Shown: positions 2,451 to 3,338 of the stretch, piece after piece
Layout: every line of letters begins with the position of its first letter
Numbering within the stretch: position 1 is the first letter of the stretch
From: Escherichia coli
GTDB taxonomy: Bacteria; Pseudomonadota; Gammaproteobacteria; Enterobacterales; Enterobacteriaceae
Assembly: GCF_003334355.1 (NCBI RefSeq)
Contig: NZ_QOWP01000044.1
Direction: 5' to 3' (one strand)
DNA: 24,113 nucleotides
Translations under genes and position numbers: made by a program
The notes under the pieces: model-generated
What the model was told of the DNA's origin: nothing
Database searches by the model: none
Seen by the model: only the letters and a program-made list of their open reading frames with translations

Positions 2451-3338
2451 GTGGTACGGCGTTTAACTTCTCCGCGGCTCGAATTTGAAGCTGCGGCAAT
2501 TTATGAATATCCCGAACATTTACGTTCATTCCTTAATGACTTACCCACCCGACCAGGGGTGTATCTGTTTCATGGTGAAAGTGACACCATGCCGCTCTAT
2601 ATCGGCAAAAGCGTTAACATCCGCAGCCGCGTCCTTTCTCATTTACGTACCCCGGATGAAGCCGCCATGCTACGGCAATCCCGACGGATCAGCTGGATAT
2701 GTACCGCCGGTGAAATCGGCGCTCTGCTCCTTGAAGCGCGATTAATCAAAGAACAACAGCCGCTGTTTAATAAACGGTTGCGCCGCAATCGCCAGCTCTG
2801 TGCCCTGCAATTAAATGAAAAGCGCGTCGATGTGGTGTATGCCAAAGAGGTGGATTTTTCACGAGCCCCCAACCTGTTTGGCCTGTTTGCCAATAGGCGC
2901 GCAGCTTTGCAAGCATTGCAGACCATCGCTGATGAACAAAAACTTTGTTATGGCCTGCTGGGACTGGAACCGTTAAGTCGCGGTCGTGCATGTTTTCGTT
3001 CAGCGCTAAAACGTTGCGCCGGAGCATGCTGCGGTAAAGAGAGCCATGAGGAACATGCGCTACGCTTGCGCCAGTCTCTGGAGCGTTTGCGGGTGGTGTG
3101 TTGGCCTTGGCAAGGGGCGGTGGCGCTGAAAGAACAGCACCCGGAAATGACTCAATATCATATTATTCAAAACTGGCTGTGGCTGGGGGCGGTTAATTCG
3201 CTGGAAGAAGCGACAACGTTAATTCGGACACCCGCCGGGTTTGATCACGACGGTTATAAAATTCTTTGTAAGCCGCTGCTTTCCGGTAACTATGAAATTA
3301 CTGAACTTGATCCGGCGAATGACCAGCGAGCCAGTTGA
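2451..3338 (+). CDS. cho: Excinuclease Cho (UvrC N-terminal homolog, GIY-YIG nuclease)
   Basis: 295-aa ORF; GIY-YIG region [29 protein letters not shown]; matches K-12 Cho (YdjQ) length. Track start is GTG. Confidence 0.88.

What the first reader, a model, noticed from the sequence alone, without database searches (positions are those of the whole stretch)
3298..3338. Convergent 3'-end overlap of cho and ves (41 bp)
The two genes terminate inside each other, so there is no room for a terminator between them and transcription of one must read antisense into the other. This could couple SOS-induced cho expression to ves expression.
Basis: seen in the sequence. Interest (0 to 1): 0.15.

Follow-up and report, generated by a model that had tools for sequence, protein, structure and literature searches.

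The report
Ordinary convergent cho–ves gene overlap
Two E. coli genes on opposite strands, the SOS repair nuclease gene cho and the small stress gene ves, really do end 41 bases inside each other, but this is an annotated, published and common kind of tail-to-tail overlap that looks like a by-product of drifting stop codons, not a special regulatory device.

Summary
The CDSs share 3298-3338, which is 41 bp. RefSeq annotates the same overlap, and the 81-nt junction matched 5405 of 5426 complete E. coli genomes. The 41-bp state holds in all 19 Escherichia/Citrobacter loci examined. Elsewhere in Enterobacteriaceae the junction is 32, 23, 15, 10, 7 or 4 bp of overlap, or a gap of 3-48 bp. ves has been lost repeatedly. 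Each stop codon is the antisense of an Ile codon plus an A-initial codon in the partner. The phase (123:132) is the commonest one for E. coli convergent overlaps. An antisense frame in this phase stays open for at least 13 codons with P≈0.56. Cho's tail varies with Ves's codon periodicity, so it is a passenger. No canonical terminator or conserved hairpin lies at the junction, so full-length transcripts must overlap. cho-ves is already listed among 165 convergent "excludons" of MG1655. Coupling of SOS-induced cho to ves, which is σ28-dependent, remains untested and has little support. Verdict: real, ordinary, already known.

The parts
2451..3338 (+). cho (ydjQ) CDS, 295 aa, GTG start, TGA stop at 3336-3338. 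Excinuclease Cho with a GIY-YIG nuclease domain homologous to the N-terminal domain of UvrC.
   Evidence: ORF. RefSeq annotation. PDB phmmer hit to the UvrC N-terminal domain, residues 23-111, E=1.6e-8. Weak Pfam GIY-YIG hit.
3298..3873 (-). ves (ydjR) CDS, 191 aa, ATG at 3873, TAA stop at 3300-3298. HutD-family protein.
   Evidence: Pfam HutD covers residues 8-175, E=1.8e-44. PDB HutD hits 5fcc and 1yll.
3298..3338 (.). The 41-bp convergent CDS overlap, phase (123:132). It encodes Cho residues 283-295 and Ves residues 179-191. In 3298-3318, Cho's conserved I-T-E-L-D-P lies opposite Ves's clade-specific tail SPDQVQ*. In 3319-3338, Ves's conserved I-N-W-L-A-G-H lies opposite Cho's variable tail NDQRAS*.
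   Evidence: AF2 places the last strands at Cho 282-285 and Ves 173-181, followed by low-pLDDT tails.
2420..2435 (+). LexA-box-like palindrome CTGGATAGATAACCAG, 16 bp upstream of the cho GTG start. It is the presumed SOS operator.
   Evidence: Sequence and pattern match. Its identity as the published ydjQ LexA box rests on my memory of Fernandez de Henestrosa et al. 2000. SOS induction of Salmonella ydjQ is reported in PMC8072944.
3926..3953 (-). FliA (sigma-28) promoter of ves, AACGTAAATCACCCGAGTTGCCGATAAC, about 53-80 nt upstream of the ves ATG.
   Evidence: Exact match in the window to the FliA motif listed for ves. FliA ChIP-seq peak; ves RNA 18 in wild type against 0 in the fliA deletion (PMC4183435).
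3996..4066 (.). spy intrinsic terminator: a long GC-rich hairpin flanked by T-runs on both strands. It is the first canonical terminator that plus-strand (cho) read-through would meet, about 700 nt past the cho stop.
   Evidence: Minus-strand fold -40.8 kcal/mol, z=-7.5; plus-strand fold z=-3.4. Plus-strand terminator-like site at 4042-4056 followed by a T-run. Term-seq 3' end at genome 1825060(-), which is window 3996 (PMC7815308).
3399..3476 (+). C-rich, G-poor tract (C 0.40, G 0.21) in the untranslated RNA downstream of the cho stop. Candidate rut region for Rho-dependent termination of cho inside antisense ves. This is an inference.
   Evidence: Composition scan.
3060..3157 (-). C-rich, G-poor tract (C 0.40-0.41, G 0.19-0.22) in the RNA downstream of the ves stop. 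Candidate rut region for Rho-dependent termination of ves inside antisense cho. This is an inference.
   Evidence: Composition scan.
3358..3384 (+). 11-bp hairpin 20 nt after the cho stop, with no U-tract. It is present in Escherichia but not in Citrobacter, and is probably incidental.
   Evidence: Fold; the region's z-score is only -1.9. The alignment fold gives -1.26 kcal/mol with no covarying pair.

Best explanation
This is a genuine but functionally incidental tail-to-tail overlap between two tightly abutting convergent genes. It arose by stop-codon loss and 3' extension, and its position is now held in place by the partner's coding constraint. Ancestrally Ves ended ...WLPGH*. In the Escherichia/Citrobacter/Salmonella lineage that stop became a Ser codon, which together with a 9-nt length difference lets Ves run six more codons (SPDQVQ). 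It runs until it meets TAA, which is the antisense of Cho's conserved Ile codon plus the next A-initial codon (ATT|A). In the mirror image, Cho reads past its last conserved strand (E-I-x-E-L) through the antisense of Ves's last beta-strand until it meets TGA or TAA, the antisense of Ves's Ile179 codon plus an A-initial codon. Each protein's unconstrained tail is therefore encoded opposite the other protein's last conserved strand. The transcriptional consequence is shown by geometry and by published RNA-seq: full-length cho and ves mRNAs are complementary over at least 41 nt, and there is no terminator at the junction. The following steps are inferred. After each stop codon the RNA is untranslated and becomes C-rich and G-poor within about 60-180 nt, so Rho probably ends each transcript a few hundred nt inside the partner gene. 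Plus-strand read-through would end at the latest at the two-sided spy terminator (3996-4066). Any mutual interference, by RNAP collision or by RNase III cleavage of the duplex, would be a small side effect, because cho (LexA-repressed and prematurely Rho-terminated) and ves (a weak sigma-28 promoter) are both weakly expressed.
For: Coordinates, stops and phase come. The 41-bp state is fixed in all 19 Escherichia/Citrobacter loci. Other genera show 32, 23, 15, 10, 7 or 4 bp of overlap, or gaps of 3, 28, 46 or 48 bp, in all three phases. The NJ tree shows these states are clade-specific. At the position of the ancestral Ves stop (CAT TGA or CAT TAA) E. coli has CAT TCG. In 3319-3338 the summed minor-allele counts are 30 at Ves codon position 3, 16 at position 1 and 5 at position 2. 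That is normal periodicity for Ves and inverted periodicity for Cho, so Cho's tail is a passenger. The last invariant or near-invariant residues are Ves I179 and W181 and Cho G279 and L286. The Pfam HutD match ends at residue 175. AF2 places the last strands at Ves 173-181 and Cho 282-285, followed by low-pLDDT tails. ves is absent in Salmonella, C. sedlakii, Intestinirhabdus, Klebsiella and Raoultella; in most of these loci cho ends within a few to about 50 bp of the spy terminator hairpin. An antisense frame in this phase stays open for at least 13 codons with P=0.56. The literature reports 58 convergent overlaps in E. coli, with (123:132) the commonest phase for overlaps longer than 4 bp, and phase frequencies that fit the stop-codon-mutation model (PMC2174442). 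No terminator or conserved structure lies at the junction. C-rich tracts lie downstream of both stops. Rho termination inside cho and the spy terminator 3' end are mapped in PMC7815308.
Against: The 41-bp state has stayed fixed across the whole Escherichia-Citrobacter radiation, and close abutment (-48 to +45 bp) persists in most genera that keep ves at this site. Selection for overlapping transcription could also produce that pattern. The third positions of Cho codons 283-285 (3299, 3302, 3305) are invariant or nearly so, which hints at dual constraint on the Ves tail V-Q-stop. cho-ves passes ExcludonFinder's criterion in at least half of 58 transcriptomes. No 3' ends of cho or ves mRNAs have been mapped, so the Rho-termination step is inference only.
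Confidence: 0.8

Rival explanations
1. The overlap is a selected convergent excludon. The lack of a terminator is maintained so that LexA-controlled cho transcription and FliA (sigma-28)-controlled ves transcription antagonise each other, through head-on RNAP collision and RNase III cleavage of the 3' duplex. This would couple the SOS response to a flagellar-regulon gene.
For: cho-ves is listed among 165 convergent excludons found in at least 50% of 58 MG1655 transcriptomes (PMC12288877). No terminator lies at the junction. The two genes belong to different regulons: a LexA-like box at 2420-2435 and a FliA promoter at 3926-3953. Convergent adjacency with little or no spacer is kept in many genera.
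Against: With overlapping CDSs, the ExcludonFinder criterion is met almost automatically whenever both genes are expressed. Overlap length and phase are not conserved between genera. Some lineages carry a GC-rich palindrome between the genes. ves has been lost at least three times inside the 41-bp clade and also in Klebsiella/Raoultella, with cho unchanged. ves RNA is low even in motile cells, at 18 against 2319 for fliC. Rho terminates plus-strand transcription inside cho in uninduced cells. No paper found in the library reports reciprocal cho/ves expression.
Confidence: 0.12
2. The overlap persists because the extra C-terminal residues, Ves SPDQVQ and/or the nine-residue Cho tail, have acquired a protein-level function in Escherichia and Citrobacter.
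For: The Ves tail is fairly conserved in the clade, as SP[DAN]x-VQ. Cho third codon positions opposite the Ves tail are invariant or nearly so.
Against: The Ves tail is absent in every other genus that has ves. The Cho tail varies freely and follows Ves's codon periodicity. Both tails are low-confidence and unstructured in the AF2 models. Conservation of the Ves tail is explained equally well by Cho's conserved E-I-x-E-L motif on the other strand.
Confidence: 0.06
3. One of the two stop codons is a sequencing, frameshift or annotation artefact, and the genes do not really overlap.
For: None was found. Overlaps longer than 60 bp are often misannotations (PMC2478687), but this one is 41 bp and convergent.
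Against: The junction is at least 99% identical in 3891 complete genomes and present in 5405. Stop positions are the same in all 19 Escherichia/Citrobacter loci. PGAP annotates both CDSs in every strain fetched. Both proteins match their orthologs over full length.
Confidence: 0.01

Closest known systems
Convergent (tail-to-tail) CDS overlaps of prokaryotes produced by stop-codon mutation and 3' extension (Fukuda, Rogozin, Lillo and Krakauer; PMC2174442)
   Same: It has opposite-strand 3' ends and a length under about 50 bp. Its phase (123:132) is the commonest for E. coli convergent overlaps longer than 4 bp. Orthologs show a lost stop with read-through to the next antisense stop. It is presumably one of the 58 such overlaps counted in E. 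coli, although I did not see that list.
   Different: Nothing essential differs. The mirror symmetry, with each stop being the antisense of the partner's Ile codon plus an A-initial codon, is a neat detail and not a new principle.
Convergent excludons of E. coli MG1655 (ExcludonFinder, NAR 2025, PMC12288877)
   Same: cho-ves is itself listed in Table 1 of that paper. Transcripts overlap at their 3' ends and the terminators are not intergenic.
   Different: The defining functional property of an excludon is mutually exclusive expression or RNase III processing. That has not been shown for this pair. Here the CDSs themselves overlap, not just the UTRs.
nudG/ynjH convergent overlap in the same window (20799-20833, 35 bp)
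   Same: It is a convergent CDS overlap of similar length. It is also in the excludon list. Its partner ynjH is FliA-dependent, like ves.
   Different: The genes are different, and I did not analyse its evolution.
Overlapping bidirectional terminators between convergent genes (Ju et al. 2019, as described in bioRxiv 10.1101/2022.10.23.513370), for example ynaJ-uspE
   Same: These are convergent genes whose transcripts end in a shared zone without classical one-way terminators.
   Different: Those elements encode a hairpin that pauses both polymerases. No conserved hairpin exists at the cho-ves junction. The nearest two-sided hairpin is the spy terminator at 3996-4066.

Membership tests
Convergent CDS overlap by stop-codon mutation / 3' extension | Two real protein-coding genes on opposite strands, each with its stop codon inside the other's CDS | tested here: met
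   Both proteins have family matches and full-length orthologs.
Convergent CDS overlap by stop-codon mutation / 3' extension | Orthologs show a shorter ancestral 3' end in at least one partner, that is, a lost or moved stop | tested here: met
   Ves ends at ...GH* in every genus outside the 41-bp clade except Franconibacter (...YL*) and the 45-bp pair L045/L076. In the 41-bp clade the ancestral stop position holds TCG or TCT, followed by six extra codons. The Cho tail ranges from 0 to 10 residues.
Convergent CDS overlap by stop-codon mutation / 3' extension | Length and phase within the usual range (under 60 bp; phase (123:132) commonest) | tested here: met
   The overlap is 41 bp with phase 1-1, 2-3, 3-2. 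Comparison values come from PMC2174442 and PMC2478687.
Excludon (overlapping antisense transcription giving mutually exclusive expression) | Transcripts of the two genes overlap on opposite strands in vivo | not testable with these tools
   No RNA data can be analysed here. The pair is reported in PMC12288877 Table 1. Overlap is geometrically unavoidable for full-length mRNAs.
Excludon (overlapping antisense transcription giving mutually exclusive expression) | Induction of one gene lowers expression of the other, or the overlap is processed by RNase III | not tested
   No data were found. The supplementary tables of the ExcludonFinder paper are not held as text.
Bidirectional intrinsic terminator between convergent genes | A GC-rich hairpin flanked by U-tracts, or a conserved pausing hairpin, located at the junction | tested here: not met
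   No terminator-like site lies at or next to the junction on either strand. No inverted repeat was found at 3150-3500. The Escherichia hairpin at 3358-3384 lacks a U-tract and is not conserved.
Rho-dependent termination of antisense read-through | An untranslated, C-rich, G-poor tract of about 80 nt downstream of the stop codon | tested here: met
   The plus strand at 3399-3476 has C/G 1.94. The minus strand at 3157-3060 has C/G 1.6-2.1. Composition alone does not prove termination.
Rho-dependent termination of antisense read-through | Bicyclomycin-sensitive 3' ends or read-through downstream of the stops | tested here: inconclusive
   In PMC7815308 the only Rho signals lie inside cho (genome 1823539 and 1823784, window about 2475 and 2720). 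No curated 3' end is internal or antisense to ves. Expression was probably too low under those conditions.

The most novel reading that the evidence does not exclude
The terminator-less cho/ves junction is a working excludon linking two regulons. Strong SOS induction of cho would send RNAP and antisense RNA through ves, a sigma-28 flagellar-regulon gene, and silence it. In motile cells, FliA-driven ves transcription would dampen cho. The same logic might apply to the second FliA-dependent gene in this window, ynjH, which overlaps nudG in the same way.
Probability: 0.07. Interest if true: 0.35.

Novelty: already known. Interest (0 to 1): 0.08.

Why it matters
It matters little on its own. The overlap is in every E. 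coli annotation, belongs to a well-described class, and the pair is already catalogued as a convergent excludon. The locus is a clean worked example of how such overlaps arise and then freeze: each stop codon is dictated by the partner's conserved Ile codon, and each disordered tail is encoded opposite the partner's last beta-strand. It is also a caution for genome engineering. Deleting or recoding the 3' end of cho or ves alters the other gene, and a knockout of either removes 13 codons of its neighbour. If the SOS/sigma-28 coupling were real it would be a modest addition to excludon biology.

Tried and rejected
1. Canonical terminators: the consensus scan of 2200-4700 found none at or next to the junction. 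The only nearby sites are inside cho (2546-2561 on plus, 2777-2760 on minus) and at the spy terminator.

2. Inverted repeats at 3150-3500: none were found.

3. The 11-bp hairpin at 3358-3384 after the cho stop was a candidate non-canonical bidirectional terminator. I rejected it because it has no U-tract, the region's z-score is only -1.9, and the 13-sequence alignment fold gives -1.26 kcal/mol with no covariation.

4. Experimental 3' ends: the Term-seq tables of PMC7815308 hold no curated 3' end in or near the overlap. Supplementary tables are not held as text for PMC6061677, PMC4161252 or PMC12288877.

5. Literature on a cho/ves relationship: a search for ydjQ plus ydjR found nothing. Other searches returned only regulon lists.

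6. Artefact hypothesis: rejected by the ortholog and population comparisons.

7. Rfam found nothing in the overlap; the only hit in the window is ES036 at 2301-2343.

8. My first automated stop extension gave wrong values for L035 (73 bp) and L055, because the tblastn alignment ran through a stop. Corrected values are L035 = 7 bp and L055 cho ending at 3867.

9. An IS1 reported under hit H1 turned out to lie between ves and spy, not in the overlap.

Full report
**Observation.** The window is E. coli chromosome, with gene order chbB-osmE-nadE-cho-ves-spy-astEBDAC-xthA-ydjXYZ-ynjABCDE-ynjF-nudG-ynjH-gdhA. cho is the ORF 2451-3338 on the plus strand: 295 aa, GTG start, TGA at 3336-3338. ves is 3298-3873 on the minus strand: 191 aa, with TAA read from 3300 to 3298. 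RefSeq/PGAP annotates the same two CDSs with the same 41-bp overlap in five fetched strains whose junction or flanking region is 92.6-100% identical to the window. The 1.6-kb region occurs in all 5426 complete E. coli genomes. The 81-nt junction matched 5405 of them and was at least 99% identical in 3891. From the Term-seq coordinates, window position equals MG1655 U00096.3 position minus 1821064, so the overlap is 1824362-1824402 in MG1655.

**Identity of the genes.** Cho carries a GIY-YIG nuclease domain homologous to the N-terminal domain of UvrC (PDB 1ycz, residues 23-111, E=1.6e-8; weak Pfam hit). Ves is a HutD-family protein (Pfam PF05962, residues 8-175, E=1.8e-44; PDB 5fcc and 1yll). 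A LexA-box-like palindrome, CTGGATAGATAACCAG, lies at 2420-2435, 16 bp before the cho start. I recall this as the published ydjQ SOS box, but that rests on memory. The Salmonella ortholog is SOS-induced (PMC8072944). ves has a FliA (sigma-28) promoter. The published motif matches the window exactly at 3926-3953 on the minus strand, and ves RNA is 18 in wild type against 0 in a fliA deletion (PMC4183435).

**Is it more than chance?** No. In the 24 genes mapped in this window, an antisense frame in this phase has 0.041 stops per codon. It stays open for at least 13 codons with P=0.56, with a median of 15 codons. Of the three convergent junctions mapped in the window, two are CDS overlaps (cho/ves 41 bp; nudG/ynjH 35 bp at 20799-20833) and the third (ynjE/ynjF) has an 8-bp spacer. 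Lillo and Krakauer counted 58 convergent overlaps in E. coli. Among those longer than 4 bp, phase (123:132) is the commonest (46% observed, 39% expected under the stop-codon-mutation model), and it also predominates among convergent overlaps shorter than about 50 bp (PMC2174442). The cho/ves overlap has exactly this phase: positions pair 1-1, 2-3 and 3-2. Convergent overlaps under 60 bp are not the class flagged as misannotation (PMC2478687).

**Comparative anatomy.** A scan of one genome per species returned 80 Enterobacteriaceae loci. The junction is 41 bp in all 19 Escherichia/Citrobacter loci examined. It is 23 bp in most Enterobacter and Lelliottia, and 32 bp in Leclercia, Silvania and E. 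asburiae. It is 15, 7 or 4 bp in Kosakonia, Phytobacter and Superficieibacter, and 10 bp of overlap or a 3-bp gap in Franconibacter. Two loci, labelled Citrobacter sp. 18056 and Chryseobacterium sp. 18061, have 45 bp. Pseudescherichia and relatives have gaps of 28-48 bp that hold a GC-rich palindrome. Three loci (Cedecea davisae and two labelled Enterobacter sp.) carry an insertion of about 1.7 kb between the genes (with corrections). All three phases occur. On an NJ tree of Cho plus NadE proteins these states are clade-specific.

ves is absent downstream of cho in Salmonella, C. sedlakii and Intestinirhabdus, all nested in the 41-bp clade. It is also absent in Klebsiella, Raoultella and Pluralibacter. 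In most of these loci cho is followed directly by spy. In Salmonella and Intestinirhabdus the cho stop sits only a few bp from the spy terminator hairpin.

**How the overlap arose.** In every genus outside the 41-bp clade, except Franconibacter and the 45-bp pair, Ves ends ...W-L-P-G-H-stop. In Escherichia and Citrobacter the codon at that position is TCG or TCT (Ser), and Ves continues S-P-D-Q-V-Q-stop. These six extra codons plus the Enterobacter-type 23 bp give the 41 bp. A 9-nt length difference in the same segment accounts for the three extra residues in Cho's tail.

Each stop is dictated by the partner. The ves TAA (3300-3298) is the antisense of Cho's Ile codon ATT plus the first A of the next codon, within the conserved E-I-[IT]-E-L motif. 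The cho TGA or TAA (3336-3338) is the antisense of Ves's invariant Ile179 codon, AT[CT], plus the A-initial Asn/Thr codon. This explains why stop positions are frozen within a clade yet differ between clades.

**Which gene owns which half.** In 3319-3338 the summed minor-allele counts across 17 loci are 30 at Ves codon position 3, 16 at position 1 and 5 at position 2. Seen from Cho, the same sites are position 2 = 30 and position 3 = 5, the inverse of a constrained frame. Cho's last residues are therefore a passive read-out of Ves's synonymous sites. Upstream of 3298, cho shows normal third-position variation.

In 3298-3318 both frames look constrained: Cho's I-T-E-L-D-P lies opposite Ves's tail. 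Alignments put the last invariant or near-invariant residues at Ves I179 and W181 and at Cho G279 and L286. AF2 models are of moderate quality (mean pLDDT 65 and 74). They place the final beta-strands at Ves 173-181 and Cho 282-285, followed by low-confidence tails. Each protein's floppy tail is thus encoded opposite the other's last strand.

**Transcription.** No intrinsic-terminator-like site lies at or next to the junction on either strand, and 3150-3500 has no inverted repeat. An 11-bp hairpin at 3358-3384 follows the cho stop. It lacks a U-tract, the region's z-score is -1.9, and it is not conserved in Citrobacter: the alifold energy is -1.26 kcal/mol with no covariation. Full-length mRNAs must therefore be complementary over at least 41 nt.

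Downstream of each stop the untranslated RNA becomes C-rich and G-poor. On the plus strand, 3399-3476 has C 0.40 and G 0.21. On the minus strand, 3157-3060 has C about 0.40 and G about 0.2. This composition is typical of Rho-dependent termination of antisense RNA, but that step is inference. The first canonical terminator on the plus strand is the two-sided spy terminator at 3996-4066; its minus-strand 3' end is mapped at window 3996 (PMC7815308).

The same study found Rho-dependent signals inside cho, a 3' end 24 nt into the ORF and a Rho region near window 2720. It recorded no curated 3' end internal or antisense to ves. Little plus-strand transcription therefore reaches the overlap in uninduced cells. 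ExcludonFinder lists cho-ves, and also nudG-ynjH and ynjE-ynjF, among 165 convergent excludons seen in at least 50% of 58 MG1655 transcriptomes (PMC12288877). Conway et al. found that 75% of 370 convergent operons make overlapping 3' ends averaging 286 nt (PMC4161252).

**Interpretation.** The most likely explanation, at about 0.8, is an incidental overlap created by stop-codon drift in two abutting convergent genes. Its transcriptional overlap is real but unremarkable. The evidence against it is fourfold: overlap length and phase vary between genera, a palindrome has been inserted in some lineages, ves has been lost repeatedly with cho unchanged, and both genes are weakly expressed. I put it at about 0.1. 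An artefactual stop codon is excluded.

**Novelty.** The feature is already known. The overlap is annotated in every E. coli genome, belongs to a class described since about 2000, and the pair is named in a 2025 excludon catalogue. The codon-level dissection here is a tidy illustration, not a discovery.

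Noticed in passing
window 20799-20833 (nudG 20426-20833 +, ynjH 20799-21071 -): A second convergent CDS overlap of 35 bp lies in the same window. 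nudG-ynjH is also in the ExcludonFinder list, and ynjH, like ves, is a FliA (sigma-28)-dependent non-flagellar gene. Both FliA-dependent genes in this window therefore end inside a convergent neighbour.
   Followed up: partly
window 19711-19718 (ynjE 18403-19710 +, ynjF 19719-20339 -): This convergent pair has only an 8-bp spacer and is also listed as a convergent excludon. Of the three convergent junctions mapped in the window, none has room for an intergenic terminator.
   Followed up: no
window 2301-2343 (+), with neighbouring REP-like sequence around 2266-2295: An Rfam hit to ES036 (CssrF) sRNA, 42.9 bits against a gathering score of 37.6, lies in the nadE-cho intergenic region just upstream of the cho LexA-like box. 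It may be a REP-associated or nadE 3'-UTR element.
   Followed up: no
window about 2475 and about 2720 (+), inside cho: Published Term-seq and bicyclomycin data (PMC7815308) show a Rho-dependent 3' end 24 nt into the cho ORF and a Rho termination region further inside cho. This suggests premature termination limits cho expression in uninduced cells.
   Followed up: partly
window 3996-4066: The spy terminator is a long hairpin (-40.8 kcal/mol on the minus strand) with T-runs on both sides, so it looks bidirectional. In Salmonella and Intestinirhabdus, which lack ves, the cho stop codon sits only a few bp from the homologous hairpin; in Klebsiella, Raoultella and C. sedlakii the spacer is up to about 50 bp.
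   Followed up: partly
L048, L054, L056, L068 (Pseudescherichia and relatives), between cho and ves: In these lineages a 28-48-bp spacer between the genes holds a GC-rich palindrome, for example GCCCGCCTGCCG...CGGCAGGCGAGC. It looks like a small hairpin element inserted at the junction.
   Followed up: no
window 22651-24113: Downstream of gdhA the window does not match the ynjI allele of the reference strain used for annotation. It carries a 377-aa ORF (22706-23839, -) annotated elsewhere as a tetratricopeptide-repeat or J-domain protein. The annotation of the best hit suggests an IS1 fragment at the very end. At least 80% of this stretch matched in only 355 of 5426 genomes.
   Followed up: partly
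L086 (E. coli 675SK2), between ves and spy: This strain has an IS1A inserted between ves and spy, about 65 bp upstream of the ves start. The insertion would displace the FliA promoter of ves, while the cho/ves overlap stays intact.
   Followed up: no
window 4891-10918 and 13744-17683: Short co-directional overlaps typical of operons occur here: astE/astB 8 bp; astB/astD, astD/astA and astA/astC 4 bp each; ynjB/ynjC 28 bp; ydjZ/ynjA and ynjC/ynjD 1 bp each.
   Followed up: no
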